This document shows positions 11,901-56,228 of a stretch of DNA of 64,000 nt, one piece after another. Origin of the DNA: a virus. Position numbers and translations under genes: made by a program. The notes under the pieces were generated by a model. That model was not told where the DNA came from and ran no database searches. It saw only the letters and a list, made by a program, of their open reading frames with translations. The stretch lies in the IMG/VR virus record IMGVR_UViG_3300027519_000002; one strand, written 5' to 3'. Every line of letters starts with the position of its first letter. The first letter of the stretch is position 1.

Positions 11901-14900
11901 TGATGGAACTGCGAAAGCCTTTGAGAATGAAGGTTTCGCTAAGAAGTTCGTACCTGCAAATAAGAAGACGCTAGTTCGTGCTGTACCTAACTTAATCAGT
12001 CAGTTAAAACGAGCCCCATCTACTGTACTGGCTTACGCAAAAGAATTTACTTCTCTTACTTCTAATCAGAAGGGCGCCATTAAGCACTTCACACAATTCG
12101 CAGAAGCGTTTGGAGAACGCCTTAATACGATCCCTAACTTAGAGGCGATTGCTAAGAACCCTGATTTCCACTTGTACACGCCATTAATGGAAGACGATGG
12201 ATTCTCTGAAACTGCCAAAGCTGGACTAGCAGCCGCTGCATACACGTGGTTAGCTAATGACGCTAAAGGTACACGTTACACTGATGCACGTGTATTAGCT
12301 CGCCGCTTTAACATCTCTGATAGCGATAAAGTACCTGCAAGCCTAGTAGGTGCATTGGCCAAAGATGGTCTACCCATCAACATGCTTTATAAAGCGTTAG
12401 GTCAAAACGCTGCATCTGCTTTAGGTATTCGTCTTAATGAAGAGTCAGCATCAACACGTGATATGAGTGTGTTGCAGTTACAACTAGGCCAGATGATTGT
12501 GGCCACTATGTCTGATATGGGCCTAATAGATGTTCGTCAACGCCCTATGGCTGATGTTATCCAAGCAGGTAATGCTGAAGTTCGTGAGAACGTTCTAATG
12601 CAGATTGGCCTGACTAAAGCTAAACAGGAAAACCTTACTCCTGAAGAGCTTGATAAAGTTATCGGTAAGATCCCATATACCACAGCAATCGTTAAGCACG
12701 ACCCAACTACAGAACCATTTGATGACACTGGCTTGAGTAATGAAGTACAGGAAATCATTGGAGCCAATGAAGATACTGACTACGTTATTGAGAACTTATT
12801 TGATACGCATACGGTAGACCGCGAACCCTCTCTTAAGCCTGGTGAAGGCCTTAAGGAAGGTGCACTTATGAAAGGTACTATGAAACAAGTATCTGAGCGC
12901 ACACGTGCAATGACAGCGGAGCAAGAGCAAAAAGCAATTACTATCGTCCAAGACAATGACTTGATCATGTCTATGTTAAACGTGGATGACAATGACGGCG
13001 AAGGCTCAGAACTTGAACGTGTACTAGGTATCGAATCTAAGAACCGACTTAAAGCAATGCCAAAGCGTATGCGCGATAGCGCGGAAGCGAAAGGTAATGG
13101 CCTACTTAACGAATGGAACAAGTACCAAACTTGGCGTAACAAACTAAGCCTGATGAAAAATGGCCTGTCTACTCCATTCTACTTGGGTATGGAAGTATGG
13201 AACTATGGTCGTTTTGGTTACACGAACCAAATGATTAATCCACAGACTTCTAAGATTCACCGTGCCTTGGTAGGTATGAAGAGCTGGAAGCAAACTGTTA
13301 GTGTCACTGATGGCCCTAAGATTCAAGCATTCTTACTTGGTGTGGCTCAAGGCTTAGACGTTGATATTGATAAGCAAACAGTAGATGACTCACTAGCTGC
13401 ACTTGACCCTATCATTAATGACGTAGATAACGTATTCAACAAGGGCGCGGTAGCTATCAACGAATTGAAAGCTAACGGTACAGAGTGGGCGCAGACTGAA
13501 GAAGGCAAAGCAGCACGCGAAGATGTTGTAGCTGCAGTAGAGAAGGGCAAACATAATGTTCACTCACTACATGCTCTAACTAACTTGGCTCGATACCTTG
13601 AAGCAAACGACAAAGGCCGAGAGCACTTTGATGCTGATATCTGGCTAGAAATCGATGGTATTACCAACGGTGTTGTAATCGGCTCAATCATTTTCGGTAA
13701 CGGTACAGCAAGCAATCTACGTGAAGAACTAGAAGCCGGCGGCATATTCTTCAATGAAAAGCGCGACTATGGTGAACATGCCTCCACTGAAGGTAATAAA
13801 GACTTCTACGAGCGACAAGCTGAGATCTGGCAACAGTACTTACAAGATGAAATTGTTGTAGCGAAACGCAACCCAGATAGTATTGAATCAAAGCGCCTAT
13901 TTGCCGCTGTACGCTTCTTTACGGGCTTGGACGTATTCTCAGACAAAGCACTAGAGATCAGCCGTAAGATGGCCAAGAGCCCACTTATGCAGAACGTATA
14001 CGGTGCAGGTAAGGCTTCACTATCTAATGACTTGGCTTCCGCAATCATAGACAACCTAGATACCTACATTGACAAGGTTATCAATGGTACTAAGGGCACT
14101 GATGAGCAAAAGGTTTACCTAGTAAACTACATGCTACAGAACATTGAGCCATTAGTTACTACTAAGAAAGGTAAGACATTCAATGTATTTAAGGGCGTAA
14201 ATCGCTTCAACACGGTAGAAGAAATTCGCGAGTCGGAGTACGACACGTTTGGTCTTAAAATCCTACAAGACAACATCAGTAAAGATTTTGCTTCACCGAT
14301 GCTTGATGCTATCGAAACACACTTCCAAGCGTTTAAATTCAACCGTGCTGTCTACATAGACAACATGAAGAACCACGCTGACGTATTTAAGTCACTGTAC
14401 GAAATGCGCGTTAAAGAAGAGAAAGAGCGCCTAGTTAGTGAAGGCCTTATCGATGCGACTGATGAAATACCTGAAGCAACGCGTAAAGCGATTGCGGATG
14501 AACTGCACCACATCATGCCTGCCGTTGAGAACCCTAACGGTGACGGTACATACGAGACTGACTTACAAGCCGTTAAAGTAGAAGATGTTGCTGCGCGTAC
14601 AGCCAAGGGCAATGCATACAGGGCTAACTTCAAACCAAACAGCGCTGTAAAGGTACAAGTACTTCAACCTAATGGTTCATACGCTAAAGGCTCATTAAAT
14701 ACTCTGTCTTCAACTGCGACTGTCCGTACCTTCGCTAATAACATCGGCCCGGGCGTTGGTGTTCAGAACATTCACGGCAACGATGCAGGAATTATTCAGC
14801 CGGTAGTAGCTAACTTCGACATCTTCAACGTTCACGATGGTATTCCAGCGGGACTTAACAACTATAAAGAAGTAGGTCAGGCCGCTAACCAAGCGTTTTT

Positions 14901-17900
14901 GGACAACGTATTCAATAACAACCCATTCAGTTACGCGAAAGATCTTATTGACCGTACAGTCGATGAAATCAATGAACGTAAAGAGCTTGGCGATATCTCA
15001 GCATCAACAGCTAAGACACTTATCGATAAGTTAACGAATACGACTACAAGCCAGTTCGGTAAAGATACTCGCGATGGCGGTAACGACTATGAGTACCTTA
15101 CTTCTAAGGCTGTCGAGACTTCCGATCGTCTAGGTGAGTTGCGTAATACTGTTGAATCGGTGCAACAATACTATTTGCCTGGGACAGGTGTTACCACTGA
15201 ACTTGGTAATAAGAACGATGAAGCCCGTAGCAATGGTACATACGAGGCACCTAAAGCCCCTGAGTTGTCAAAAGACGGAGCAACACAAACCGCATCGACT
15301 GTGCAGCGCACAAAGGAGATGCAACAGAAGAACCTAAAAGAAAACACTTCTGATACTGGCTTAAAAGATACCGCGCCATTCGCCACTACATTAGAAAAAG
15401 CATTGAAAGCAGGGGAGTCATTCTCTTCAGCATTTAAAGCCGCTGTAGATGCCACTGGCTCAAAGGGTTTCCACGTAAGCTTAATCAATAAGCTACTTGA
15501 GAACTTGCCTTCTGACTTTGAAGTGCAGCTTGTGAACAAGGACAGTGATAGTAAGTTGGTCGAGAAGATGAACGGTATTCGTGGCGCCCATATCAAAGGC
15601 ACAGGTAAACTGTTACTTAAGTCAACAGACTTCAGCAAGAACAGCCTAAACCTTGAAACCTTGGCTCACGAACTGCTTCACGTAGTTACTGCGAACACTA
15701 TTGACGCTGAACCTGATAATCCAGCCGTTAAAAAACTTGATGAATTGTTAAGAGAACTTCGCGGTAAGATCACTGACAGCAAGTTCCTACCTGCATTAGA
15801 AAACTCTAAAGAACTGGTAGCTTGGGGTTTGACCAATAAAGACTTCATCAGGAAGCTTAGAGCTACAAAGGTTAAGAGTAGACGTAACGGTAAGCTATTA
15901 GATGCGTTCACCGCATTTGCTGACGCACTAAAAGGCTTCTTTGGTGGTAAGTCACTTAAGAACGACTCTGCACTTAAGCAGTTAATTGAGCTGTCTGCTG
16001 CCGTAATGGAAGTGGATAGTAAGGTTAACCCTCGAAGCAATGACGCTAACATTGACCTGAACGCTCAACGCATCCAAAGAATGTCACCGGTAGAACTTAT
16101 TCGTGGTCTAGCTGCGCATGGCCAAACTACTGACGCACATACATCTCACTTGGTTTCAATCCAAGAAGAGATAGTAAACGTGTTCGCTGGCCCAATGGGT
16201 GCTGACCTTAAGTTAGAGGAAGAGGCGTTAGGTGATGACGTTGATCAATACCTTACCCACCTATCCAACGGTACAAGACCATTCGTAAGCGCAATCCAAA
16301 CAACATTTAACCTTACACCTCAAGAAGCTTATGTTGCGGAGCAACTGGAAGCGGTACTTGATAGTAAGATATTAGATGCAGGGTTCGTTAAGAATAGACT
16401 CGTTGATGTCTGGGAATCAGCTAGAAAGTCGCTTACATGGGAAAGCTTCCTACCTAACCCTGACTTCAAAGATGATGCGGCAGAAGTTGCCAAGGCTAAA
16501 GCCAAGTACGATTACTTGTTTAGTACTAAGAACCTTAACAAAGGTAACTATGCGTTCAGTGACTTAGCAGGTAAGTACGTAGACTCTCGCGCCTCTGACT
16601 TCCTTACTCGATTCGCAGCAGCTTCTGCTGTATCAAGTGAAGTTCGTGCAGCCCTAGAAGGCCTAGACGAGGTTACTACTGAAACCAATGGAAGTATTTG
16701 GTCACGCGCTAACAAGGCTGTCATGGATCTGTTTGGTCGCATGGAAGAGCTGGTTAACGGTAACTTACGTCACGGTGGTAACTTGCAAGAGAAGCAAGAC
16801 CAGTTACTTAACCGCATGGCTCAAACTAATCACCGTAATCGTCAAAAACTTAACCTACTGGAAAGGAAGAACCTTGAAGGTAAGACAGTACTTAACAAGT
16901 ACCTAAGCAAAGCTATTAACTCTGCACTAACTGGTGATTTCGTTACTTCACGTACAGAGTCTGAGCGCCCGTTTATAGCGGCAGCGGCTAACGTAGCGCA
17001 GTTGGTAGGTACAGGTACAGTCGGTACTATGACTGAGTTCTTACGTAAGCAGTTCAAAAAGGCTGACGAAGATAGACCTAGCCCACTAAACGAGGCGTTT
17101 ACCGAGGTATTCGGTAGAGGCCATCCTGATATGGATAGCGTTATAGACCTTACGCGTAAAGCCAATCGCGATATCGAGCAGCAACGTCAGTTCGGTAAAC
17201 AAGGCATGATGTCACTACTTCAGAGTAAGTTAGGCAAGTTAAGCGATGCAGCGTCTGAAAGCCTACACAAATCACTGCTTTCTACTGATGCCGGCCACCT
17301 ACTTGCTAACGGTTACGATATCAACCGAATCGACGAGTTCCTGACAAACGATGCAGCGCTAGACAACGAAATCAAAGATATCGAATCTCGTATATCTGGT
17401 TTCCAGCACAGCACTACTTACGTTAACCAAGCCAAAGCGCTTGCATACTATATGGTAACGGGTAACGCCACCTCTGATGTGTTGCACAAGAACGCTCACC
17501 AGATCGTTAACCTGTTTGGATTAAACCAGAAGGTAACTGACGATCGCAAAGCTGATGCAATCAAACTGGTAGACACACTCACTTCTCTTTACGCCATGAC
17601 GTACACTTCAAACGGCCATAAGAAAGCCGCTTCACAGGTTATTCGCGAGAACAACCAAAAGGACGAGAACGGCGTTGAGTTCATGCTTAAGCAGTACGAA
17701 CAGTTACGCCTAGATGCCCTTGAAGCTAATTTTGACGGCGAAGTGACGCAAATGACAAAAGGTTACACACCTGAGTCAGTTAATCCGCACATCACTCACG
17801 ACTATGCTTTGCCTGGGAGTGCGAAAGCTGAGTCTCTATATAAGCAGGGCTATAAGTTAATTGGGGCTGTTGGTCGCGATGAACGCCTAGACTCTTCAAA

Positions 17901-19569
17901 AGGTCTACTACTATTCGCAATTGAAGATGGCGGTATGGCTCGAAGAGTGACAGGTACAATGTCATTTACGGCAGGGGCTATGAAAGGTACTGAATGGATT
18001 GACTCTATGGAAAAAGCGGAGCAGCCAATCACGTACAAGGATAAGCACAAGATCTTAGGCGGCATTATCGGTACGGCTCGTAAGAACGCACTTGCACGTA
18101 TCAGTGACCCTAACTTTGACCCACGTAGTGTTGAGGTTGATGCTGGCCCAATGATGATTCCGACTTTCCACAATGACGGTTCAATAAAGACATTCCGTTA
18201 TGAAATGTCAGAAGCATTGCGTACAACCAGTCTTCAGAAGCGCTATAACGCTATCGAGGCATTGGCTACCATGCAGGGCAATGTCGTTGACAAACGAAAT
18301 ACCCGTGAACGTAACCGTGCGGTAGTAGACACGCTGGTAGAGCAGTACAACAATGACCCTGATAGGGCTTCAGCGGATTATGTACATATCGGCCCAAATG
18401 CGAAATCTGCATACCTCCGCGAATACTGGTCGCTATTACCTCACGACACACAAATGTACATTCGTGAAAAGACCGGCCTTAAGTTACCTATCAAGCGCGA
18501 GCTGTTACATGCAACACTAGGTTTCCGCAAACCAAGTCTATCTGATATCTTCAAGACTGACCGCGATGCACAAGGCATGGTTACTAGCCTAGTTCGCAAA
18601 GGTTTGGAGAACGTACTTAAGCCTGACCAGATTAGCGCACTAATCCGCGGTATCAAGAAAGGTGAAGATGGTTTCGCTGTTGCCACTGGTATTATTAAGG
18701 ACAACGTAGTTGTTAAGAACCTTTGGACTACCATGTTCAACATCGTTAGTAACTTCCTACACCTGCTTGGTAACGACATACCAGTTCGCCAAGCGTTTAG
18801 CGGCAGCGTGCGCGGTTATCGTGAAGCAGCTAAGTACAACAAGCTACGTCAACGTGCCTACGAAGTAGAGCGTGAAATGGCTATCTTGGATTCAGGTTCT
18901 GAACAGTACAGCAAGTTCCGCAATGAGGCTAACAAGCTACAAACGCTAATGGCCACAAGCCCAGTACATAAGCTAATGGAAGCTGGCTTGTTCCAGACTA
19001 TCGTAGAAGATATCGATAACACGCAAGACCCGTTCAGCTTTAAGAGCAAGACCGCACGCAAGATTGATGAGTGGTCCGACGCGAAGCGAGTAGGGCCACT
19101 GAATAAACTAGGCAAGTACCTTTACGTTACGCAAGACACGCAACTGTATAAGATGATGAACCAACCTATTCAGATGTCTGACTTTGCTGCACGTTTTGCC
19201 ATGTTTGAGTACTTAACTGAAATGGCGCCTGAAAAGCTGGATGATCAGACTGCGTTGAATACGGTCAGCGAACACTTCGTTAACTACGATATTCCTACCA
19301 GTCCACAGCTCCAGTGGCTTAACGACCACGGGTTGTTGATGTTCAGTAAGTATTACCTACGGATTCTACGTCCGGTATGGTCTACATTCGCTGAGAAGCC
19401 AGTGAGTACAATACTTTCTCTAATGATGACGCTAGACAATGCGCTAACATCACCAGTGGAGACAGTACTAAGTAGCACTATCTTCGATAAGATTACTAAC
19501 CCTATCTCAAGTGGTTTAGATGCTTGGGACGAACCATTGCCGCTGCAAGCAGTAGCAGAAATTCTTTAA
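8914..19569 (+). CDS. Virion-encapsidated giant RNA polymerase (N4 gp50-like vRNAP).
   Basis: 3551 aa. Central domain carries T7-like motifs: A-like FDADIWLEIDGITNG, B SRKMAKSPLMQNVYGAG (R-x3-K-x7-YG), C NVHDGIP. Last gene of the late operon, as in N4. Confidence 0.85.
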   Translation: MSNELSVQKTQMKRDRIQKRANELIGFDKFSQNVTAAAETARAAQDRIAAEEIRRAKISRDSWARNSELGTLSGQSKQLVNRLAQGGLQVLSEAVAGANNTEANRLLGKLDDRALRLAQRELNGETLSTEDSTYLDQQVDTSQFYLPKFGTSAHHMPSSSTAREVFAEALSNLKQAGNIDNALTKDTAVAKAFNPLNREEQSADIAKAYEDSGLSNEESLTSNPMALFNFAVDGAKSLVNNPASTIEYAAESLAGAASAAVPGLAVINSANYANDVRANNIDRKLQDENTSLTKADIEEANQEGALAGALDFAGDVVTARAAGITKALNKGKAPKTKSLARKATEESIKRPAKVAGSSVLESVTEGAQSAIEEDAFGEDFDLKTNGKDVLEAAVIGAGASGVTTGTGQAVQTAKDVTKAAPEVAKAIAESAKTKNQSNDDVEKARKVRTEQSVGVANETKDYSDIIEKSTAQVEESEKLDIEEVASTISRQFEAQSKDTTDPDSTEANESIEQLSGLWDAAVDRLDSVFSEIAQDTDKKKPELRQQASELGRAIDVIEAHREKISEAIARDNNTTEAITNLTNATERNEDFELNAQRILDTDAVSPDSISVEQMEALLKSDKWTPEERTRLENSFNAKQSMKVIEESRDIQSSSPNADLVSNDIFNGRSKGTYNKKDKGASGVKSYRQKVGHALRTGNIEAANKARDYLAAFADKHTKKSEAIQLALGAYARVGQNGNFTLQYNEQEQAAVDYLAREHKFEMKSGTPRIAPSIQREAEALRNVLTEVDGLIQAKRDVDPISTQSTQPTPTANTAPQATQEQPTATADASPTVTETSTPEATETVSNDTVEQPTTEATQPEAQTTPEENTQTVTEPEAETTTEESTESESEAVTDEEVGETNLEQALQESRAEEVRIDNQIEDLRKQLTDKEGITNQVIAELGLADKEAHSVKERTQINEAVRERQGELLTQIQNYKADQKAVRNSTRALEGQKANFDGTAKAFENEGFAKKFVPANKKTLVRAVPNLISQLKRAPSTVLAYAKEFTSLTSNQKGAIKHFTQFAEAFGERLNTIPNLEAIAKNPDFHLYTPLMEDDGFSETAKAGLAAAAYTWLANDAKGTRYTDARVLARRFNISDSDKVPASLVGALAKDGLPINMLYKALGQNAASALGIRLNEESASTRDMSVLQLQLGQMIVATMSDMGLIDVRQRPMADVIQAGNAEVRENVLMQIGLTKAKQENLTPEELDKVIGKIPYTTAIVKHDPTTEPFDDTGLSNEVQEIIGANEDTDYVIENLFDTHTVDREPSLKPGEGLKEGALMKGTMKQVSERTRAMTAEQEQKAITIVQDNDLIMSMLNVDDNDGEGSELERVLGIESKNRLKAMPKRMRDSAEAKGNGLLNEWNKYQTWRNKLSLMKNGLSTPFYLGMEVWNYGRFGYTNQMINPQTSKIHRALVGMKSWKQTVSVTDGPKIQAFLLGVAQGLDVDIDKQTVDDSLAALDPIINDVDNVFNKGAVAINELKANGTEWAQTEEGKAAREDVVAAVEKGKHNVHSLHALTNLARYLEANDKGREHFDADIWLEIDGITNGVVIGSIIFGNGTASNLREELEAGGIFFNEKRDYGEHASTEGNKDFYERQAEIWQQYLQDEIVVAKRNPDSIESKRLFAAVRFFTGLDVFSDKALEISRKMAKSPLMQNVYGAGKASLSNDLASAIIDNLDTYIDKVINGTKGTDEQKVYLVNYMLQNIEPLVTTKKGKTFNVFKGVNRFNTVEEIRESEYDTFGLKILQDNISKDFASPMLDAIETHFQAFKFNRAVYIDNMKNHADVFKSLYEMRVKEEKERLVSEGLIDATDEIPEATRKAIADELHHIMPAVENPNGDGTYETDLQAVKVEDVAARTAKGNAYRANFKPNSAVKVQVLQPNGSYAKGSLNTLSSTATVRTFANNIGPGVGVQNIHGNDAGIIQPVVANFDIFNVHDGIPAGLNNYKEVGQAANQAFLDNVFNNNPFSYAKDLIDRTVDEINERKELGDISASTAKTLIDKLTNTTTSQFGKDTRDGGNDYEYLTSKAVETSDRLGELRNTVESVQQYYLPGTGVTTELGNKNDEARSNGTYEAPKAPELSKDGATQTASTVQRTKEMQQKNLKENTSDTGLKDTAPFATTLEKALKAGESFSSAFKAAVDATGSKGFHVSLINKLLENLPSDFEVQLVNKDSDSKLVEKMNGIRGAHIKGTGKLLLKSTDFSKNSLNLETLAHELLHVVTANTIDAEPDNPAVKKLDELLRELRGKITDSKFLPALENSKELVAWGLTNKDFIRKLRATKVKSRRNGKLLDAFTAFADALKGFFGGKSLKNDSALKQLIELSAAVMEVDSKVNPRSNDANIDLNAQRIQRMSPVELIRGLAAHGQTTDAHTSHLVSIQEEIVNVFAGPMGADLKLEEEALGDDVDQYLTHLSNGTRPFVSAIQTTFNLTPQEAYVAEQLEAVLDSKILDAGFVKNRLVDVWESARKSLTWESFLPNPDFKDDAAEVAKAKAKYDYLFSTKNLNKGNYAFSDLAGKYVDSRASDFLTRFAAASAVSSEVRAALEGLDEVTTETNGSIWSRANKAVMDLFGRMEELVNGNLRHGGNLQEKQDQLLNRMAQTNHRNRQKLNLLERKNLEGKTVLNKYLSKAINSALTGDFVTSRTESERPFIAAAANVAQLVGTGTVGTMTEFLRKQFKKADEDRPSPLNEAFTEVFGRGHPDMDSVIDLTRKANRDIEQQRQFGKQGMMSLLQSKLGKLSDAASESLHKSLLSTDAGHLLANGYDINRIDEFLTNDAALDNEIKDIESRISGFQHSTTYVNQAKALAYYMVTGNATSDVLHKNAHQIVNLFGLNQKVTDDRKADAIKLVDTLTSLYAMTYTSNGHKKAASQVIRENNQKDENGVEFMLKQYEQLRLDALEANFDGEVTQMTKGYTPESVNPHITHDYALPGSAKAESLYKQGYKLIGAVGRDERLDSSKGLLLFAIEDGGMARRVTGTMSFTAGAMKGTEWIDSMEKAEQPITYKDKHKILGGIIGTARKNALARISDPNFDPRSVEVDAGPMMIPTFHNDGSIKTFRYEMSEALRTTSLQKRYNAIEALATMQGNVVDKRNTRERNRAVVDTLVEQYNNDPDRASADYVHIGPNAKSAYLREYWSLLPHDTQMYIREKTGLKLPIKRELLHATLGFRKPSLSDIFKTDRDAQGMVTSLVRKGLENVLKPDQISALIRGIKKGEDGFAVATGIIKDNVVVKNLWTTMFNIVSNFLHLLGNDIPVRQAFSGSVRGYREAAKYNKLRQRAYEVEREMAILDSGSEQYSKFRNEANKLQTLMATSPVHKLMEAGLFQTIVEDIDNTQDPFSFKSKTARKIDEWSDAKRVGPLNKLGKYLYVTQDTQLYKMMNQPIQMSDFAARFAMFEYLTEMAPEKLDDQTALNTVSEHFVNYDIPTSPQLQWLNDHGLLMFSKYYLRILRPVWSTFAEKPVSTILSLMMTLDNALTSPVETVLSSTIFDKITNPISSGLDAWDEPLPLQAVAEIL

Positions 19570-42198: not shown

Positions 42199-42213
42199 GG
42201 GTACGGAGTACCC
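42199..42213 (-). promoter_or_regulatory. GGGTAC-GGA-GTACCC hairpin, candidate vRNAP-type hairpin promoter.
   Basis: Perfect 6-bp inverted repeat with a GGA loop, 30 nt upstream of the MoxR ATPase gene. Confidence 0.35.
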
Positions 42214-50130: not shown

Positions 50131-50145
50131 GTGCACGGAGTGCAC
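50131..50145 (-). promoter_or_regulatory. GTGCAC-GGA-GTGCAC hairpin, candidate vRNAP-type promoter.
   Basis: Perfect 6-bp inverted repeat with a GGA loop. Shares about 30 nt of flanking sequence with the copy at 53264, including TTCATCTAAGAAAAA. Confidence 0.4.
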
Positions 50146-50186: not shown

Positions 50187-51374
50187 TTATGACAATGCGT
50201 ATTCAGCACTGGCGATTTGAGATACCACGTTACCTAGCTTGGGTATGTGGTAGTTTGAGCCATGTATTTCAGACAAGATATCTGCTAACAGGTCAGAGTG
50301 AGCCAGTTGCTTAAACATCTCAACATAGTGCTCGCGCATGAAGTTCACGTAATTAGCGTGACACTTGAACTCGTCATGTACACACTTCACTGGGAATGGT
50401 TTATGAGCCAATGTCTTGCATATCAAGCGATGCAGTTCAACTAGGTTCTCTGCATAGTCAGACATGATGATTTCATGGTCATGTAGCATGGTAGCCATAC
50501 GTAGTGATACGAACTCGTTGCTAGGGTTGGTCTTCCCGTTCTTAGCCCAATAGTTCTCAATCATGTATTTAACACGCTTAAGTTCTTGTGGGTTGTAGTT
50601 ACAACGTCTGTTCATCTCACGCACCAACATACCGTCAATGCTGTGAATGACGTTAGCTGCGATAGATAGGCCTGACTCTTGACCAGCTTTAACTTCGAAG
50701 CGGTGCGTAAAGGTAGCGTGATCTAACTCATCTACTTCAATACGCTTATCTTGCTTCTCCATAACAGGACATACAGCAACGAAACCATCAGGTAATGACC
50801 ATGAATGTTCGTCTGCGTATGGTTGCCAAGCACCTAATAGATGTTCCATGGCGATTGTGGCACCAAGTGCTACATCTTTCAGTGACTCGTAGAACGCTGC
50901 TAGTTCAGGCGTATCTTCACCGAATACCTCTTTAGGTTGCATAGTAGAGCCGTAGAAGTGAGTCATAAGTGCTGACTTAACAGCCTTACGTACAACCTTC
51001 ACATTGATGTGCGGTGAGTTGTTCATTACACCAGTTACATCAGTATAGATATCTGCTCGACGACCAGTATTGATAAGGCCTGTAGACTTACAGGTAATCT
51101 CGCAATTCATCAGTGCACCCATGATTTGAACACCAGACGAACAAGCGTCTAGGCCAACCATGAAGCCTGATGGTCTACCTGCTTCAGCATCTTCAAGTGC
51201 TAATAGAGCACCAAGGTAGATAGCAGGTTCATCAGCGTCTTCAACTAAGGCATGAAGTTCTTCCATAGTTTTCGCTTCAACCCATTTAATACGGTCTTCA
51301 AACAACTCTTTGTCTAGGCCAAATGCGTTTGCGATTGCGATTTTGATGTACTGTTTACCAGTGAAATGTTGCAT
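50187..51374 (-). CDS. Phage RNA polymerase II catalytic (large) subunit, N4 gp16-like, T7-type.
   Basis: Motif A VGLDACSSGVQIMGA (T7 DGSCSGIQ), motif B VRKAVKSALMTHFYGS (R-x3-K-x7-YG), motif C VKCVHDEF (T7 HDSF). Confidence 0.75.
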   Translation of the reverse strand: MQHFTGKQYIKIAIANAFGLDKELFEDRIKWVEAKTMEELHALVEDADEPAIYLGALLALEDAEAGRPSGFMVGLDACSSGVQIMGALMNCEITCKSTGLINTGRRADIYTDVTGVMNNSPHINVKVVRKAVKSALMTHFYGSTMQPKEVFGEDTPELAAFYESLKDVALGATIAMEHLLGAWQPYADEHSWSLPDGFVAVCPVMEKQDKRIEVDELDHATFTHRFEVKAGQESGLSIAANVIHSIDGMLVREMNRRCNYNPQELKRVKYMIENYWAKNGKTNPSNEFVSLRMATMLHDHEIIMSDYAENLVELHRLICKTLAHKPFPVKCVHDEFKCHANYVNFMREHYVEMFKQLAHSDLLADILSEIHGSNYHIPKLGNVVSQIASAEYALS

Positions 51375-51398
51375 AACTAAATCCTCATATAGTTGGAT

Positions 51399-51421
51399 GC
51401 AGCAGCCGTGCGTTAGCGTAG
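51399..51421 (-). promoter_or_regulatory. Early-promoter-like hairpin motif, copy 1 (CAGCC-GTGCGTTAGCGTA-GGCTG), followed by the TATGAGGATT box.
   Basis: Carries the shared GCGTTAGC core and sits 25 nt upstream of the RNAP II large-subunit ATG. Confidence 0.35.
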
Positions 51422-51505
51422 GCTGCGTGGTTTATCTTAAGTGAATCGGGACACCCCAGTTTAGTGGGTCATTGGGGTCGAACGGGTCAAGCCCATTACT
51501 GCCCG

Positions 51506-51787
51506 TTAGGGCTTTTTTGACTTGTTGAGCTCCATGGCAGCGTTCCAACCTGCTTCATAGGCTTCTTCTGATTGGTAATCATTAGGGAAGTCAGATCCTT
51601 GAATGTACAAGTTATAACTTTCTTCCCATGGCTCTGGCTTTACGCGCCATGTGAGTTTGGGTCTACGTATAGGGTTATAGTCGGCACTATCCATATCTTC
51701 GTAAGTACCTTGCGTACTTAGGTACTGAATCTTTTTACCTTCAGATAATGCGGCTAGTGCCTCTAGCTGGTTAAGTTGTCTACTCAC
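51506..51787 (-). CDS. Hypothetical protein.
   Basis: 93-aa ORF. Confidence 0.4.
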   Translation of the reverse strand: MSRQLNQLEALAALSEGKKIQYLSTQGTYEDMDSADYNPIRRPKLTWRVKPEPWEESYNLYIQGSDFPNDYQSEEAYEAGWNAAMELNKSKKP

Positions 51788-52028
51788 TCAGTAGTTCCTC
51801 AATAGCGTCAAGCTTTGATTGGTCTGCCTGACGTTGCTCTTCAAGGATTGCAGTAACAGCATTGAGGTAACGGTCACACTCTGCTTGTAGCTTGGCGTAG
51901 TACTCCATGTCTTTGTCAGACTCCTGATAAGAAGCATCAATCAACCACCGATTAGGGTTACTTCTAATCATGCGCAAGGTGTTTCCAATATTTCTTGCGC
52001 GATTACTCATATCACTATATTTACTCAT
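51780..52028 (-). CDS. Hypothetical protein (82 aa). The internal ATG with a GGAGGT SD is preferred over the TTG start at 52151.
   Basis: GGAGGT lies 5 nt upstream of ATG 52028. The upstream part of the tracked ORF is overlapped by a better small ORF in another frame. Confidence 0.4.
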   Translation of the reverse strand: MSKYSDMSNRARNIGNTLRMIRSNPNRWLIDASYQESDKDMEYYAKLQAECDRYLNAVTAILEEQRQADQSKLDAIEELLSE

Positions 52029-52185
52029 CTTTACCTCCGATTGGTGAGTACCACGCCTTAACTCGACAGGCGTTATGAGCGGTAAACAGTTTCGTATAAT
52101 CACTTGGTTTACCTCCATGTTTTTTAGCCCTTTCAGTAGCACTTGGAACAAGCTTTATGGGTTTGTTGCAGTAGGTGCAGTTCAT
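52021..52185 (-). CDS. Small zinc-ribbon-like protein (MNCTYCNKPIKL...HNACRVKAW), 54 aa. Not in the ORF track.
   Basis: ATG overlaps the stop of the upstream small ORF (ATGA). Its stop overlaps the ATG of the next gene. CxxC...H..C pattern. Confidence 0.35.
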   Translation of the reverse strand: MNCTYCNKPIKLVPSATERAKKHGGKPSDYTKLFTAHNACRVKAWYSPIGGKDE

Positions 52186-52319
52186 ACTTCGACTACCTCT
52201 TTAATGCTTGGGTAAGACTGCGATCGCCACCAGTGCCGCAGTGCGGCTTCTGATGTGAAATCGTAAATTCCTTGGTGATGTGCAGGGTCATTACCCCAAA
52301 TAACGTGAAAGGTTTTCAT
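52182..52319 (-). CDS. Small ORF (45 aa, MKTFHVIWGNDPAHHQG...). Not in the ORF track.
   Basis: AAGAGG/GAGGG SD 6-9 nt upstream. Translationally coupled to the zinc-ribbon ORF. Confidence 0.3.
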   Translation of the reverse strand: MKTFHVIWGNDPAHHQGIYDFTSEAALRHWWRSQSYPSIKEVVEV

Positions 52320-53242
52320 CCCTCAATTACCTCTTTCTCTGCGAACTCAACGATTGCTTTACGGAATTGGTTGCCCTGAGTGGACACGTGATAACCCTGA
52401 GCATAAGTACGCCCACGTTTATCTACTTTATGTCTCTCATAGAACTCATTACCTACTTGGATTAGGTCACGATACGTTCTGTATGAGTCTGTAACGAACG
52501 TTAACCACTGACGCTTGGTATCTGCATCCATATCAGGGTTCTTCGGTGTCTCGCTCAATCTGGTGAGTATTCTTTCATTCAGACACAAAGGTACTGAATT
52601 GAATAGGTTGATTGAGTCCAAGCAAATGTCTTCGTCATGGTGAGTACCTTTACCTAAAATCATGGATGATTTCTCGGTAAGTAAGTCGTTATCGAAGTTA
52701 CGCGTAACAACGTTAGGCCGCACCACCATTGGTGGGAGATACTTAGTTTCGTGAATGTGCTTCATCACTTGTTCACTAAGTTCAATGTTGTTAATTAGGT
52801 ATAGAACAGCACCTTCATCACTATCGATTTTGTCGATATCGAAGTAGTCATGTTCTGACATAACAGCCATGATCTCGGCTGTAGTCACAATACCCTCATA
52901 CTTGTCTGACATCTTAAGCACGCCAGCACACTGACCTACGATTGAGGTGAACTCAACAGGGTCTGTAAGTACTGATGTCTGACATAAGATTTCATTTACC
53001 ACTACCTCCATATCTCTCTCATGGAGTTGGGCTAATCTTGCCTCTTTTGAGTGGTAATAATCACCATGTAGCCATTGCGTCAGAGCGTCAGCGGTAGACG
53101 CAATAAGGTCTATCATTGACTGTTCAGCAGTAAGGTCATTCAGTATGACTTTGTTAATCTGCTTCTTGCTGTGCTTGGTTTCTACGTAACGCTGGTAATC
53201 AACTAAATTCATGTGGCTCATCTGTCTGCTCGCTCTTTTCAT
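52316..53242 (-). CDS. Probable RNAP II small (N-terminal-domain-like) subunit, N4 gp15 position.
   Basis: 308-aa ORF two genes upstream of the catalytic subunit, preceded by a GGA-loop hairpin. Assignment by synteny only. Confidence 0.35.
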   Translation of the reverse strand: MKRASRQMSHMNLVDYQRYVETKHSKKQINKVILNDLTAEQSMIDLIASTADALTQWLHGDYYHSKEARLAQLHERDMEVVVNEILCQTSVLTDPVEFTSIVGQCAGVLKMSDKYEGIVTTAEIMAVMSEHDYFDIDKIDSDEGAVLYLINNIELSEQVMKHIHETKYLPPMVVRPNVVTRNFDNDLLTEKSSMILGKGTHHDEDICLDSINLFNSVPLCLNERILTRLSETPKNPDMDADTKRQWLTFVTDSYRTYRDLIQVGNEFYERHKVDKRGRTYAQGYHVSTQGNQFRKAIVEFAEKEVIEG

Positions 53243-53263
53243 CTACGTCCCGTAAGGGACACA

Positions 53264-53278
53264 CTGCACGGAGTGCAG
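53264..53278 (-). promoter_or_regulatory. CTGCAC-GGA-GTGCAG hairpin, candidate vRNAP-type promoter.
   Basis: Perfect 6-bp inverted repeat with a GGA loop, 22 nt upstream of the 53242 start codon. Flank CTCTCATCTAAAAAT is conserved with the 50131 copy. Confidence 0.4.
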
Positions 53279-53328
53279 CTCTCATCTAAAAATCAGTTAA
53301 GAAAAGTAAAAGGGCCGAAGCCCTCTAC

Positions 53329-53481
53329 TTAGTAAAAGTTAAGCTCTGGTAGCATTAACTCACATTCGAGATGGTGCATATCAGCGTGCACATCACGTTT
53401 AAATTCTTGTTCAAACTCAACTTCAGCTTCTAGCTGCTCAATGTGTTGGTCTAGTTCGATTTCAAAGTTATCTGTAAACAT
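53329..53481 (-). CDS. Small early protein. Start at the ATG that follows the TATGAGGATT box.
   Basis: ORF 53329..53520. The conserved ACTATGAGGATT box lies immediately upstream of ATGGAAATG. Confidence 0.35.
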   Translation of the reverse strand: MFTDNFEIELDQHIEQLEAEVEFEQEFKRDVHADMHHLECELMLPELNFY

Positions 53482-53530
53482 TTCCATAATCCTCATAGTG
53501 GAAGTCAACGAGCGACACACACCACGTGTG

Positions 53531-53550
53531 CCATTACTGCGCGTTAGCGC
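53531..53550 (-). promoter_or_regulatory. Early-promoter-like motif, copy 2 (CCATTACT-GCGC-GTTA-GCGC).
   Basis: 20-nt conserved motif with a 4-bp stem and a 4-nt loop. Confidence 0.4.
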
Positions 53551-53693
53551 TATTGATGAAAAACAACACCTACAAGCAGGGTTGCAACAGAAAGTGATGC
53601 GAAGATCACTGTTAGATGCCAGTTCTTTAATTTACTGGGCTTAGAAGGGTTATGCGTAACGTAATCAGTAGGCATTTCACTTTCCTTTAGGTA

Positions 53694-53718
53694 TAAAAAA
53701 AGGACACACAAGGTGTCC
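53694..53718 (-). terminator. GGACACC(ttgtg)GGTGTCC plus TTTTTTTATA on the minus strand.
   Basis: Stem-loop plus U-run after the 53737 gene stop. Confidence 0.55.
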
Positions 53719-53736
53719 TCTTCAGGTGATATTTAA

Positions 53737-54129
53737 TTAAGCAGTTTGCTGCATTAACTCTTTCAACTTAGATGTCTTTTCATCTGTTTCAGTTGATTCT
53801 TCTTCTTGGGCTTTGCCAAGCATCGCACCGATATCAAGCGCATTATCATCAAGCTGTTCTTGAACGTGGACGTTCTTAACTTTGATAACTAACTCTGTTG
53901 AGTCTTCAGGGTTATCAAGCATGTAGTTATGCAGTGCTTGCATTTGCGTTGAAGGGTTTTCAGTGCGGTTAAGTGAGATACCTACACGTGAAAGTGGAAT
54001 AACAACACCATTAGGCAAATGTGCCTCAAGGTTCGCAAAACCGTCTGAACGCTGTTGTTGACCGCGTGAACGGTTGTTAGCGATTGCAGGGTTAGAACGT
54101 AGAGCGTTGCGGTTTACTAATTTAGCCAT
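53737..54129 (-). CDS. Hypothetical early protein with a basic N-terminus. Start at MAKLVNRN.
   Basis: ORF with the TATGAGGATT box 9 nt upstream of ATG 54129. Confidence 0.4.
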   Translation of the reverse strand: MAKLVNRNALRSNPAIANNRSRGQQQRSDGFANLEAHLPNGVVIPLSRVGISLNRTENPSTQMQALHNYMLDNPEDSTELVIKVKNVHVQEQLDDNALDIGAMLGKAQEEESTETDEKTSKLKELMQQTA

Positions 54130-54177
54130 TGTCAAAATCCTCATAGTTGACGTTAATTCAATGGAACACCATTTGTT

Positions 54178-54197
54178 CCACTAATGTGCGTTAGCAC
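54178..54197 (-). promoter_or_regulatory. Early-promoter-like motif, copy 3 (CCACTAAT-GTGC-GTTA-GCAC).
   Basis: Conserved motif about 50 nt upstream of ATG 54129. Confidence 0.4.
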
Positions 54198-54408
54198 AAC
54201 AAATCAACCTGAAGAAGTAGATAAGTGATAAGTATATTTGACAGTCTGAGTCGAAGACCATTACGCTGCGCTTGTCGCAGCCCAGTGTTGTGTTTGTGTA
54301 GTGTTGTGTAGTGTATTAATAGTTAATTAATACCTATTAATATATAAAGAAATAACGGGATATAGGGTGTAACCCTATATCCCTTTTTATTAATTAATAG
54401 ATAAGTAT

Positions 54409-54660
54409 TTAGTAGTAAATAATATTCCTATTAGGGACGATTTGAGAATCGACACCTCTACCTACAAGGTGACGTAGTGCTTGGAAAGCACGGTCACTAT
54501 ACTTACATATTGTTGATACACCATCCTTGGTAATACCCCTTACAAATAACCTAGTGCTTGTACCTTGTGAGTACACTCGTAACATTTCACCTGAGTCGGT
54601 AGTGATAACTTCAACGTCACAATGTGCTGCTAGTACAGACAGGTTAATAACTAACTTCAT
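54409..54660 (-). CDS. Small early protein.
   Basis: 83-aa ORF. The motif lies 30 nt upstream of its ATG. Confidence 0.4.
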   Translation of the reverse strand: MKLVINLSVLAAHCDVEVITTDSGEMLRVYSQGTSTRLFVRGITKDGVSTICKYSDRAFQALRHLVGRGVDSQIVPNRNIIYY

Positions 54661-54690
54661 ACTTCGATATTCCCTTGTTCGTTATAATGT

Positions 54691-54710
54691 CCATCACTGT
54701 GCGTTAGCAC
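54691..54710 (-). promoter_or_regulatory. Early-promoter-like motif, copy 4 (CCATCACT-GTGC-GTTA-GCAC).
   Basis: Immediately downstream (in transcript sense) of the 54711-54737 terminator. Confidence 0.4.
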
Positions 54711-54737
54711 TAAAAAATAAAGCACCCGAAGGTGCTT
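54711..54737 (-). terminator. AAGCACC(ttcg)GGTGCTT plus TTTATTTTTT on the minus strand.
   Basis: Stem-loop plus U-run after the 54738 gene stop. Confidence 0.55.
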
Positions 54738-54959
54738 TTAATTGTCCGTCATTGTATTTTGAATTTCTTGAAGAGATTCCATTATCTCATTCATTTCTGT
54801 GAGGGTTATTACTATGTCATTTGCGGGCGCAAATAGTACCTCGTTGTTAATTATATGGGCTTCACCTAAGTCGCATATAAATTGCGATGTAGAGTCTATT
54901 AATTCTCTGCGTTCAAAACCTATTGTTTCACCGTCAACTACAGTTTTTAGATATCTCAT
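54738..54959 (-). CDS. Small early protein.
   Basis: 73-aa acidic ORF. Confidence 0.4.
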   Translation of the reverse strand: MRYLKTVVDGETIGFERRELIDSTSQFICDLGEAHIINNEVLFAPANDIVITLTEMNEIMESLQEIQNTMTDN

Positions 54960-55105
54960 TGATTAACTCTCCAATCAACATTGGCCATGTAGTCATAGAA
55001 CATATCAACTACTGCTTCTTCATCTACATTACCACTATCGTGATGAATGACAGCACCAAACTTGTTTAATACACCAATTGGTACGTGCTTCTTAATTAAT
55101 GACAT
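54956..55105 (-). CDS. Small early protein. Start at MSLIKKH after the TATGAGGATT box.
   Basis: The box is followed by aaacgaATG at 55105. Confidence 0.35.
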   Translation of the reverse strand: MSLIKKHVPIGVLNKFGAVIHHDSGNVDEEAVVDMFYDYMANVDWRVNQ

Positions 55106-55155
55106 TCGTTTAATCCTCATAGTTAGAATGTATTTTACCATCACAACGCGATAAC

Positions 55156-55176
55156 GCCATGACGGTAAATTGTTTA
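55156..55176 (-). promoter_or_regulatory. Early-promoter-like motif, copy 5 (CCATCAC-aa-CGCGATAACGCC variant).
   Basis: Shares CCATCAC and the GCG..CGC stem. The loop differs. Confidence 0.3.
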
Positions 55177-55428
55177 GTCGAAGTCTATTTCTTCGTGCAT
55201 TTTGTTGTCATGCAGAATGAACTTCTCTTTAACGTAGACACCATCTTCAAGGTGATCAGGTACAAAGTTCCACTTAGCAGGTACAACCCACTCACCATCT
55301 AGAAACAAACTTAGTTGTCCAACTTTACGTTGTTCATCTGAATAGCGGTGATTACCTTCAACTAGTTTCGTAACGTGAACGTATTGGTGAGTTGATGACT
55401 CAATGTATGCAACAGTTTCAAAAGTCAT
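55174..55428 (-). CDS. Small early protein. Start at ATG 55428 (MTFETVAY).
   Basis: TTATGAGGATT box 7 nt upstream. Confidence 0.4.
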   Translation of the reverse strand: MTFETVAYIESSTHQYVHVTKLVEGNHRYSDEQRKVGQLSLFLDGEWVVPAKWNFVPDHLEDGVYVKEKFILHDNKMHEEIDFD

Positions 55429-55466
55429 AAGCAAATCCTCATAAGTTAATGACTAAGGCATGATAT

Positions 55467-55489
55467 CCATTAATATGCGTTAGCATATA
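55467..55489 (-). promoter_or_regulatory. Early-promoter-like motif, copy 6 (CCATTAAT-ATGC-GTTA-GCAT, extendable to a 7-bp stem TATATGC/GCATATA).
   Basis: Compensatory base changes relative to the other copies preserve the stem. Confidence 0.4.
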
Positions 55490-55741
55490 GGTATGTATCG
55501 GTTAGAGATGAATAGATGGTAAGGTATAGGTTCTAGGGTAAATAGCTTTTACAGACACTCAGACACACTCTCTGCTCATGTATAAGGTGAAGTCATACAA
55601 TGACACTCATTCATCTAATGTACTCTCAGGATGTGATACAGAGCGTATTAGTAGAACTATCTAATGATGTTGATAAGAAGGTTAATAAGAACTGTCTTTG
55701 CTTGTGTTGTGTAGTGTGCTCTTAGAAAAAGGAGAGACAGC

Positions 55742-55951
55742 TTACGCTGCCTTTTCCTCGATAGATGCTACTTTACTAGCCTTTGCTTTAGCTAGTTTCT
55801 CTTGTAGCTTAAGTTGTTCAGTTTGTTCCCAGTTCTCTACGTTGATGCGCATAACTGATGTTGCCTTGTTGCATGAGATAGCTACGTCCTCTGCAGACTT
55901 GAAGAACAATGAGATTACGTTGAAGAATTGTGAGATTACGTTAAGCATGGC
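55742..55951 (-). CDS. Possible first early gene (69 aa, MLNVISQFF...AKAKASKVASIEEKAA).
   Basis: Internal ATG of the 55742..56119 ORF, preceded by an ACTATAGAGGGTAT box and motif copy 7. Confidence 0.3.
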   Translation of the reverse strand, partial: AMLNVISQFFNVISLFFKSAEDVAISCNKATSVMRINVENWEQTEQLKLQEKLAKAKASKVASIEEKAA

Positions 55952-55979
55952 GATACCCTCTATAGTTGTGGCCTGATTG

Positions 55980-55999
55980 CCATTAATCCGCGATAGCGG
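55980..55999 (-). promoter_or_regulatory. Early-promoter-like motif, copy 7 (CCATTAAT-CCGC-GATA-GCGG).
   Basis: Most upstream copy, next to the G10 tract. Confidence 0.35.
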
Positions 56000-56228
56000 T
56001 AGTGTGCTTTGGTAGGGGGGGGGGTAGGTTTCGTTTTTAAACGAAAATACGGTAGTAATACACTCGTACCTAATTATTAAAAATCTACAAAAGTTTCGGT
56101 ATATTATTTGACCAATCACTCGAGACTTTGCTGATCATCCATTCAGTGTTAAAGTAGTCATTCCTTCGGGCCTGTCATCAGTACAGCCCAGTTACACCTC
56201 ACAATTCCTTCCTTGAAGTACCTCTCCA

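What the first reader, a model, noticed from the sequence alone, without database searches (positions are those of the whole stretch)
51399..55999. Seven copies of a conserved about 20-nt motif with a co-varying hairpin upstream of early genes
Seven copies lie at 51399, 53531, 54178, 54691, 55156, 55467 and 55980. Each sits 25-60 nt upstream of a minus-strand small gene, and several follow a rho-independent terminator directly. On the displayed (template) strand the motif reads CCAYYAMT-[4-7 bp stem]-G(T/A)TA-[stem']. The stem changes sequence between copies but keeps pairing: GTGC/GCAC, GCGC/GCGC, ATGC/GCAT extended to TATATGC/GCATATA, CCGC/GCGG, and CAGCC.../...GGCTG. That kind of compensatory change points to recognition of a DNA hairpin, as with N4 virion RNAP early promoters, rather than a sigma-70 type promoter. 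The flanking CCAT resembles the CATCC segment that I recall preceding the N4 P2 hairpin. The copies cluster in the 5-kb early-gene region.
Basis: partly seen in the sequence, partly recalled or inferred. Interest (0 to 1): 0.7.

Follow-up and report, generated by a model that had tools for sequence, protein, structure and literature searches.

The report
Hairpin early promoters of N4-like phage
The repeated motif is very probably the set of DNA-hairpin promoters that this N4-like phage's injected RNA polymerase uses to switch on its first genes; this is the expected arrangement for the phage family, here with a four-base rather than a three-base loop.

Summary
The window is an uncultured N4-like (Schitoviridae) phage. 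It has a 3551-aa virion RNA polymerase gene and both RNAPII subunit genes.

The motif is real. On the template (+) strand it reads CCAYNAMW-NNSC-GNTA-GSNN. There are six perfect copies (51493, 53531, 54178, 54691, 55467, 55980; none expected by chance) and one degenerate copy (55138). All lie in the leftmost 4.6 kb and all point at minus-strand early genes.

The 4-bp stem changes sequence but keeps pairing, both between copies and between orthologous copies in three related genomes (97.8% of cells paired, three of four pairs covary). The closing C-G pair and the G..TA loop never change.

N4's own promoters, read from its genome, have the same layout: a hairpin with a GC-G.A-GC core, a short spacer, then template CC (RNA starts GG).

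Corrections:
- The "copy" at 51399 is a different, deeply conserved hairpin in the RNAP2 leader.
- The copy at 51493 was missed.
- The copy listed at 55156 is really at 55138 and has a broken stem.

A second covarying hairpin family (6-bp stem, GGA loop) lies at 53264, 50131 and 42199 and may be middle promoters.

Verdict: a new member of a known kind, with a tetraloop twist. Moderate-low interest.

The parts
55980..55999 (-). Class A hairpin promoter, the leftmost one. Template (+) strand: CCATTAAT CCGC GATA GCGG. Predicted +1 at 55981, driving the 68-aa gene 55742-55948.
   Evidence: The L002 and L003 orthologs have ACGC/GCGT, a compensatory change.
55467..55486 (-). Class A hairpin promoter: CCATTAAT ATGC GTTA GCAT (the stem can extend to 6 bp). 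Predicted +1 at 55468, driving gene 55174-55428.
   Evidence: The L003 ortholog has GTGC/GCAC and the L002 ortholog has loop GATA.
55138..55157 (-). Degenerate class A copy: CCATCACA ACGC GATA ACGC (2 of 4 pairs; alternative 3-bp GCG-ATAA-CGC). Predicted +1 at 55139, driving genes 54956-55105 and 54738-54959.
   Evidence: The L003 ortholog is perfect (CTGC GTTA GCAG).
54691..54710 (-). Class A hairpin promoter: CCATCACT GTGC GTTA GCAC, directly after terminator 54738-54719. Predicted +1 at 54692, driving gene 54409-54660.
   Evidence: The L002 ortholog has loop GGTA.
54178..54197 (-). Class A hairpin promoter: CCACTAAT GTGC GTTA GCAC. Predicted +1 at 54179, driving gene 53737-54129/54144.
   Evidence: The L002 ortholog has GCGC/GCGC, a compensatory change.
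53531..53550 (-). Class A hairpin promoter: CCATTACT GCGC GTTA GCGC. Predicted +1 at 53532, driving the small gene ending at 53329.
   Evidence: The L002 and L003 orthologs have GGCC/GGCC, a compensatory change.
51493..51512 (-). The stop codon of the upstream gene lies in the loop. Predicted +1 at 51494, with a 120-nt leader to RNAP2.
   Evidence: Conserved in L002, L003 and L004.
51400..51428 (-). A long hairpin GCAGCC-GT-GC-GTTA-GC-GTA-GGCTGC with no CCAYYAMT, about 25 nt before the RNAP2 start codon. Function unresolved.
   Evidence: Conserved before RNAP2 in L002-L005, L007 and L008, including lineages whose class A hairpins differ.
53264..53278 (-). Class B hairpin: CTGCAC GGA GTGCAG on the template strand, between terminator 53326-53309 and RNAP1. 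A second hairpin (53246-53259) follows it.
50131..50145 (-). Class B hairpin: GTGCAC GGA GTGCAC, directly after the RNAP2 terminator at the early/middle boundary.
   Evidence: Covarying orthologs in L002, L003, L004 and L007.
42199..42213 (-). Class B hairpin: GGGTAC GGA GTACCC, intergenic, 31 nt before the start codon at 42168 (middle region).
52316..53221 (-). RNAP1, the small subunit of the N4-type RNAPII (301 aa from the start supported by homologs).
50187..51374 (-). RNAP2, the large subunit of the N4-type RNAPII.
8914..19569 (+). Virion RNA polymerase (3551 aa), the presumed reader of the class A hairpins.
   Evidence: matches N4 vRNAP structures 11gp/9pnq, E 1e-39.
56015..56024 (.). G10 run (C10 on the sense strand) 15 nt upstream of the first promoter. 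It marks the neighbourhood of the left genome end.
   Evidence: The same run follows the first promoter in L002-L004, L007 and L008. N4 has a C-run at 32-41.
54719..54738 (-). Intrinsic-terminator-like hairpin plus T-run, immediately upstream of the 54691 promoter. Similar ones lie at 55735-55752, 54357-54383, 53309-53326 and 50166-50185.

Best explanation
The class A elements are early promoters for the phage's virion-packaged RNA polymerase, of the N4 hairpin type.

Proposed mechanism, by analogy with N4. After the left end of the genome enters the cell, negative supercoiling extrudes the 12-nt inverted repeat. The template-strand arm folds into a mini-hairpin with a 4-bp stem, an invariant closing C-G pair and a G-N-T-A loop whose G and A can form a sheared pair. 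The injected polymerase binds this hairpin. The identity of the outer stem bases is free as long as they pair. Transcription starts on the conserved template CC, 10-11 nt beyond the loop, giving RNAs that begin GG.

Each promoter drives a short unit, promoter then one or two small genes then a terminator. The last two units include the RNAPII subunit genes.

Shown here:
- the motif, its strand and its confinement to the early region;
- stem covariation with invariant loop ends;
- the polymerase genes;
- the matching layout of N4's own promoters.

Inferred: hairpin extrusion, binding by the virion polymerase, and the exact start site.
For: - Virion RNA polymerase and RNAPII genes are present.
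- There are six exact copies plus one degenerate copy. All are on the template strand of the early genes, only within 51.5-56.0 kb, against 0.00 expected.
- The first copy sits next to the joined genome ends, as N4 P1 does.
- On 23 sites from four genomes, 97.8% of stem cells pair and three of four pairs take 2-3 pair types. Slid controls pair 18-42%.
- Orthologous compensatory changes: CCGC/GCGG to ACGC/GCGT, GTGC/GCAC to GCGC/GCGC, GCGC/GCGC to GGCC/GGCC, ATGC/GCAT to GTGC/GCAC.
- The test is not circular. A scan with no constraint on the 3' arm still gives 4 of 4 pairs at early-region sites and 0-2 elsewhere.
- As single-stranded DNA the template strands fold into the predicted hairpin, -3.6 to -5.1 kcal/mol.
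- N4 promoters read from EF056009 have a stem, a G.A-type loop, a stem, a 4-nt spacer and template CC. The review states that stem identity is free, the loop is conserved, and -10G:-12A form a sheared pair (PMC4496689).
- LUZ7 has nine mapped early starts at hairpins with stems of at least 4 bp, starting on G 13-14 nt from the hairpin centre (PMC9163698). Here the distance is about 12.5 nt.
- Sigma-70-like sites are depleted.
- More distant relatives carry different hairpins at the same positions. L007 and L008 share the downstream ..TGG, and in L010 and L011 a TGG lies within 10 nt of the stem.
Against: - There are no transcription start or binding data.
- The loop has 4 nt, not N4's 3, and there is no conserved central purine equivalent to N4's -11G.
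- Four-base-pair stems are only marginally stable, and their extrusion from duplex DNA is unproven.
- A second hairpin family (class B) in the same genome carries the very loop of N4 P2 (C-GGA-G). It could be the polymerase's true or additional target.
- One copy (55138) has a broken stem.
- The promoter-contacting residues of N4 vRNAP could not be aligned to this protein.
Confidence: 0.8

Rival explanations
1. The class A hairpins are promoters for the phage's second polymerase, the heterodimeric RNAPII, as reported for the hairpin-type middle promoters of LUZ7. The virion polymerase would use something else, for example the class B GGA hairpins.
For: LUZ7 middle promoters are GC-rich hairpins with 3-4 nt loops (PMC9163698). 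The class B hairpins carry the N4 P2-type loop. One lies before RNAP1, where N4 itself has a hairpin promoter.
Against: Class A sites precede the RNAPII genes themselves and the very first gene at the genome end. They are absent from the whole 20-50 kb replication and middle region. Only three intergenic class B sites were found, the first 2.7 kb from the end. Two of them lie at or inside the middle region, which fits a middle role for class B better than an early one. The short stems of class A fit LUZ7's early class, and the stems of 6 bp or more fit its middle class.
Confidence: 0.08
2. The inverted repeats are double-stranded operator sites for a dimeric phage or host regulator of early genes.
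For: They are 12-nt inverted repeats placed just upstream of genes.
Against: The arm sequence varies freely while complementarity is kept, whereas an operator would conserve sequence. The conserved parts are the asymmetric loop (always G-N-T-A on the template strand, never the reverse) and a one-sided CCAYNAMW flank.
Confidence: 0.04
3. The elements act in RNA, as processing, stability or attenuation signals in read-through transcripts.
For: Terminators in this region may be leaky. In that case the hairpins would be transcribed from upstream units.
Against: In the sense direction the hairpins are not followed by a U-run. No RNA family matches. The conserved CC/GG lies outside the hairpin at a fixed distance.
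Confidence: 0.03

Closest known systems
Coliphage N4 early promoters P1-P3 for the virion RNA polymerase
   Same: - Template-strand DNA hairpin in the leftmost early region.
- Stem identity is free but pairing is kept.
- GC-rich core with a closing C-G pair and a loop that begins with G and ends with A.
- A short single-stranded spacer, then template CC (RNA GG).
- Promoter-gene-terminator units, one of them before RNAP1.
- A poly-C run near the left end.
   Different: - The loop has 4 nt (G-N-T-A), not 3 (GGA/GAA), and no conserved central purine.
- The stem is usually 4 bp, not 5-7.
- The spacer is 6 nt, not 4.
- There are seven copies, not three.
- The polymerases are only distantly related (E 1e-39 over 3500 aa).
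Pseudomonas phage LUZ7 early promoters (mapped by ONT-cappable-seq)
   Same: Many copies (nine in LUZ7). Hairpins with stems of at least 4 bp. G start 13-14 nt from the hairpin centre, against about 12.5 nt predicted here.
   Different: LUZ7 has a conserved 3-nt loop. The starts here are only predicted.
LUZ7 middle (RNAPII/Drc) hairpin promoters
   Same: The class B hairpins here have 6-bp stems and a 3-nt loop (4 nt in one L007 site). They lie at the early/middle boundary and in the middle region.
   Different: There are no start-site data. The class B loop equals the loop of N4's early P2 promoter. One class B site lies before RNAP1.
Extra-stable DNA mini-hairpins d(GCGAAGC) / d(GCGAAAGC) (own knowledge, not checked here)
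   Same: The core GC-G..A-GC has a loop that a sheared G:A pair can close. The N4 review describes this for the N4 loop.
   Different: The loop here is G-N-T-A, and its stability was not measured.

Membership tests
N4-type virion-RNAP hairpin promoter | The genome encodes a giant virion RNA polymerase | tested here: met
   The 3551-aa ORF 8914-19569 matches N4 vRNAP structures.
N4-type virion-RNAP hairpin promoter | Located in the early region at the left genome end, co-oriented with the early genes and upstream of the RNAPII genes | tested here: met
   All copies lie in 51.5-56.0 kb on the template strand. RNAP1 and RNAP2 lie downstream. The ends are joined at about 56.0-56.2 kb.
N4-type virion-RNAP hairpin promoter | An inverted repeat whose variable bases need only keep the hairpin | tested here: met
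   97.8% of cells paired and three of four pairs covary. Orthologous compensatory changes are seen.
N4-type virion-RNAP hairpin promoter | 3-nt loop with a central purine (-11) and a 5-7 bp stem | tested here: not met
   The loop is 4 nt, G-(T/A/G)-T-A. The stem is 4 bp in most copies and up to 6 bp.
N4-type virion-RNAP hairpin promoter | Conserved GC-rich core around the loop (GC-GRA-GC; -9C, -8G; G:A closure) | tested here: inconclusive
   The analogous core is SC-GNTA-GS. The closing C-G pair is present in 22 of 23 sites and the loop G, T and A in all 23. The -8-equivalent position is G in 15 of 23 sites and C in 8.
N4-type virion-RNAP hairpin promoter | Start on template C at a fixed distance from the loop (11 nt from the loop centre in N4) | not testable with these tools
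   CC is conserved 10-11 nt beyond the loop, about 12.5 nt from its centre. No RNA data are available.
N4-type virion-RNAP hairpin promoter | Bound and used by the virion polymerase on single-stranded or supercoiled DNA (gyrase and SSB dependence) | not testable with these tools
   This needs biochemistry.
Sigma-70 promoter | -35 and -10 hexamers at 16-18 nt spacing | tested here: not met
   6 sites found against 15.9 +/- 4.0 expected. None falls at a motif copy.
Intrinsic terminator | A GC-rich hairpin followed by a U-run in the transcribed sense | tested here: not met
   There is no T-run after the hairpin on the sense strand. Only 51493 has a T-run, and it is on the untranscribed + strand.
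Known RNA family (Rfam) | A match to a curated covariance model | tested here: not met
   Only one sub-threshold chance hit in 50.0-56.5 kb.

The most novel reading that the evidence does not exclude
In this Alteromonas-associated lineage the virion polymerase has shifted from N4's three-base loop to a four-base G-N-T-A mini-hairpin with a 4-bp stem and a longer ruler. The phage's second polymerase reads a separate class of longer GGA-loop hairpins. Both phage polymerases would then be hairpin readers with distinct specificities. Hairpin specificity would also turn over quickly between sister lineages (window type, L007 type, L008 type) while the start region stays fixed.
Probability: 0.45. 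Interest if true: 0.45.

Novelty: new member of a known kind. Interest (0 to 1): 0.35.

Why it matters
Hairpin promoters read by an injected polymerase are a hallmark of N4-like phages. They have been defined experimentally in only two phages, N4 and LUZ7.

This set gives a clean, covariation-supported consensus for an uncultured marine lineage. It shows that loop size (4 against 3 nt), stem length and spacer can change. It also shows that closely related lineages carry different hairpins at the same positions.

That makes the lineage a natural series for working out how these polymerases read hairpin shape. The short orthogonal promoter and polymerase pairs could also be useful as tools.

For annotation, the set gives seven predicted early transcription units.

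Tried and rejected
- A first pattern with the wrong spacing found nothing.
- A near-identity DNA search of cultured phages found nothing. The closest cultured phage by RNAP1 is only 39% identical.
- The metagenome scan with RNAP1 peptides found no relative. Relatives came from the viral collection and from protein look-ups instead.
- The near-match on the minus strand at 62894-62911 was rejected. Its closing pair is mismatched, only 2 of 4 pairs form, and it lies inside an ORF.
- The GGA-loop hairpins at 38316, 48286, 48886 and 54483 were set aside because they lie inside open reading frames.
- The bare heptamers ACGGAGT and GCGGAGC are not enriched.
- The CA-rich decamer is not enriched genome-wide.
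- A stem-loop beginning exactly at the predicted +1 is seen in 4 of 7 leaders but not the other 3. Overall leader folding is no better than shuffles, so this is only weak support for the start site.
- The promoter-contacting residues of N4 vRNAP could not be compared, because that part of the protein does not align.

Full report
WHAT THE WINDOW IS

The window carries a 3551-aa ORF (8914-19569, +) that matches the solved N4 virion RNA polymerase (E 1e-39). It also carries N4-type major head, terminase and other late genes on the + strand.

On the minus strand lies a long run of genes. Among them are the two subunits of the N4-type RNAPII: RNAP1 at 52316-53221 and RNAP2 at 50187-51374.

Late genes start at 56229 going right, and early genes start at about 55950 going left. 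The two genome ends are therefore joined at about 56.0-56.2 kb, and the finding covers the leftmost early region in N4's orientation.

The phage is not close to any cultured one:
- There is no near-DNA match.
- The DNA polymerase is about 52% identical to that of enteric N4-like phages.
- RNAP1 is at most 39% identical to any cultured phage.

Its relatives sit in Alteromonas and Salinimonas assemblies and in metagenomes.

THE OBSERVATION

On the + strand, which is the template for the minus-strand genes, the motif reads CCAYNAMW - NNSC - GNTA - GSNN.

Exact copies lie at 51493, 53531, 54178, 54691, 55467 and 55980. That is 6 found against 0.00 expected. A degenerate copy lies at 55138.

- The 55156 copy is really the 55138 copy, and its stem is broken (2 of 4 pairs).
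- The 51399 copy is a different element (see 'Class C' below).
- The 51493 copy was missed.

The hairpin is not a product of how I searched. A scan that fixes only CCAYNAMW, four free bases and GNTA, and leaves the 3' arm free, gives 13 hits. The seven in the early region have 4,4,4,4,2,4,4 complementary positions. The six elsewhere have 0-2.

A repeat finder recovers the motif de novo. As single-stranded DNA the template strands fold into the predicted hairpin at -3.6 to -5.1 kcal/mol. The broken copy folds at -2.6.

COVARIATION

Three related genomes carry the same motif at the same positions: L002 (RNAP1 88% identical), L003 (81%) and L004 (69%). They have 6, 6 and 4 sites.

Orthologous sites show double changes that keep the pairing:

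| Window site | Window arms | Relative | Relative arms |
|---|---|---|---|
| 55980 | CCGC/GCGG | L002, L003 | ACGC/GCGT |
| 54178 | GTGC/GCAC | L002 | GCGC/GCGC |
| 53531 | GCGC/GCGC | L002, L003 | GGCC/GGCC |
| 55467 | ATGC/GCAT | L003 | GTGC/GCAC |

On the 23-site alignment, 97.8% of cells pair and three of the four pairs take two or three pair types. The closing C-G pair holds in 22 of 23 sites and the loop's G, T and A are invariant. Controls with the partner slid by 1-3 columns pair only 18-42%.

The second loop base varies (T, A or G). The loop always reads G-N-T-A on the template strand, so the element has a fixed orientation relative to the genes.

COMPARISON WITH N4, CHECKED ON ITS SEQUENCE

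Reading EF056009, the sense strand has three hairpin promoters:
- P1: GTTGC-TTC-GCAAC-TTAT-GGA (about 91-112).
- P2: GAAGC-TCC-GCTTC-TTTT-GGA (about 556-578).
- A third, just before gp15 (RNAP1): AGCTGC-TCC-GCAGCT-TTT-GG (about 4547-4568).

On the template strand these read CC, a spacer, a stem, the core GC-G(G/A)A-GC and the second stem.

The N4 review (PMC4496689) states the following:
- Conserved stem and loop bases are contacted by the polymerase, while the other stem bases need only pair.
- -10G and -12A form a sheared pair.
- The four As before the start act as a ruler.

The element here has the same plan with different numbers: a 4-nt loop that still begins with G and ends with A, a 4-bp stem, and a 6-nt spacer.

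The first G of the predicted GG start lies about 12.5 nt from the loop centre. The figure is 11 nt in N4 and 13-14 nt in LUZ7, where nine early starts were mapped at hairpins with stems of at least 4 bp (PMC9163698).

SURROUNDINGS

The predicted starts lie 32-51 nt before the start codons of six small genes and 120 nt before RNAP2.

Most leaders share an extended ribosome-binding motif, AACTATGAGGATT (7 matches against 1.8 expected).

Terminator-like hairpins on the minus strand follow most genes, and one abuts the 54691 promoter. The region is therefore a string of promoter-gene-terminator units, as in N4.

Sigma-70-like sites are depleted (6 against 15.9 +/- 4.0 expected) and none coincides with a copy. 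No Rfam family matches.

DIVERGENCE AMONG RELATIVES

More distant relatives keep the layout but change the hairpin (sense strand):

| Locus | Source | Hairpin |
|---|---|---|
| L007 | Salinimonas marina | CCAGC-AWA-GCTGG followed by ATTAATGG |
| L008 | Alteromonas sp. RKMC-009 | (G)GCAA-CAAG-TTGC(C), then 5-6 nt, then GG |
| L010 | metagenome contig (RNAP1 homolog named Marisediminitalea sp. by NCBI) | CGC-AAN-GCG |
| L011 | Marinobacterium litorale | CCGC-TTC-GCGG, the N4 P1 core |

In L002-L004, L007 and L008 the first site lies beside a G/C run at the joined ends.

The start region (..TGG) stays while the hairpin turns over. This is what is expected if the hairpin co-evolves with the polymerase that reads it.

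TWO OTHER HAIRPIN FAMILIES

Class B. On the template strand this is a 6-bp stem with a GGA loop. Intergenic copies lie at three places:
- 53264-53278, between a terminator and RNAP1;
- 50131-50145, right after the RNAP2 terminator;
- 42199-42213, 31 nt before a middle gene.

Orthologs in L002, L003, L004 and L007 covary. All cells pair and 4 of 6 pairs show compensatory changes.

The loop equals that of N4 P2. The long stem and the position at and beyond the early/middle boundary match the LUZ7 middle promoters, which have stems of at least 6 bp and 3-4 nt loops. I consider a role as middle (RNAPII) promoters the more likely, but a second class of virion-polymerase promoter is not excluded.

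It is a longer hairpin, GCAGCC..GC-GNTA-GC..GGCTGC, about 25 nt before the RNAP2 start codon. It is conserved in every relative, including L007 and L008 whose class A hairpins differ. In L003 its loop is GTA, so three- and four-base G..A loops are interchangeable at this site. It lacks the CC at the right distance. Its role is open: it could be a leader RNA structure, a polymerase-binding site or a variant promoter.

VERDICT

These are very probably N4-type hairpin promoters for the virion polymerase.

What is established by sequence: the motif, its confinement to the early region, its orientation, its covariation, and the parallel with N4. What is inferred: hairpin extrusion, binding by the virion polymerase, and the start site.

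This is the expected arrangement for the phage family, so I file it as a new member of a known kind. The tetraloop, the rapid turnover of hairpin type between sister lineages, and the second hairpin class are the points worth a specialist's attention.

Noticed in passing
window 53264-53278, 50131-50145, 42199-42213: A second covarying hairpin family on the template strand, with a 6-bp stem and a GGA loop. The three copies are intergenic: before RNAP1, after the RNAP2 terminator, and before a middle gene. Orthologs are present in four relatives. These are possibly middle (RNAPII) promoters like those of LUZ7.
   Followed up: partly
window 51400-51428; L002-L005, L007 and L008 just upstream of RNAP2: A long hairpin GCAGCC..GC-GNTA-GC..GGCTGC in the RNAP2 leader. 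It is conserved even in lineages whose early-promoter hairpins differ. L003 has a GTA triloop at this site. Its function is unknown.
   Followed up: partly
window 53246-53259: A second small hairpin (GTCCC GTAA GGGAC on the + strand) directly downstream of the class B hairpin before RNAP1. Its stem covaries in L002, L003 and L007. It would sit at the 5' end of the RNA if the class B element is a promoter.
   Followed up: partly
window 51380-51392, 53488-53500, 54136-54148, 55112-55124, 55434-55446: Early-gene leaders share an extended ribosome-binding motif, AACTATGAGGATT in the sense direction (7 matches against 1.8 expected). It is much longer than a plain Shine-Dalgarno sequence.
   Followed up: partly
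window 56015-56024: A G10 run 15 nt upstream of the first promoter, in the 230-nt gap between the divergent early and late genes. The same run is present in L002-L004, L007 and L008. N4 has a C-run at 32-41 of its left end. It probably marks the terminal region, which means the window is a joined-ends assembly.
   Followed up: partly
L007 (CP064795.1, 3.77 Mb) and L008 (CP031010.1, 4.93 Mb): Related N4-like genomes lie inside complete bacterial chromosomes of Salinimonas marina and Alteromonas sp. RKMC-009, with their ends joined. This is either integration or mis-assembly. N4-like proviruses have been reported (PMC10654107). The flanks were not examined.
   Followed up: no
window 54196-54356 and 55487-55734: Two long AT-rich non-coding spacers lie between a terminator and the next promoter. 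Each contains the tract GTGTTGTGTAGTGT (CA-rich in the sense direction). Similar ACACTACACAACA tracts occur in L007 and L008. The decamer is not enriched genome-wide.
   Followed up: partly
window 55899-55940: A 21-nt tandem duplication (86% identical) inside the first early gene.
   Followed up: no
window 54357-54383: A 12-bp perfect-stem hairpin flanked by T-runs on both strands, i.e. a bidirectional terminator-like site, after gene 54409-54660.
   Followed up: no
window 62894-62911 (minus strand): A near-match to the motif (CCATTACT GTGA GTTA GCGC) with a mismatched closing pair, inside an ORF of the lysis/late region. It is probably chance.
   Followed up: yes
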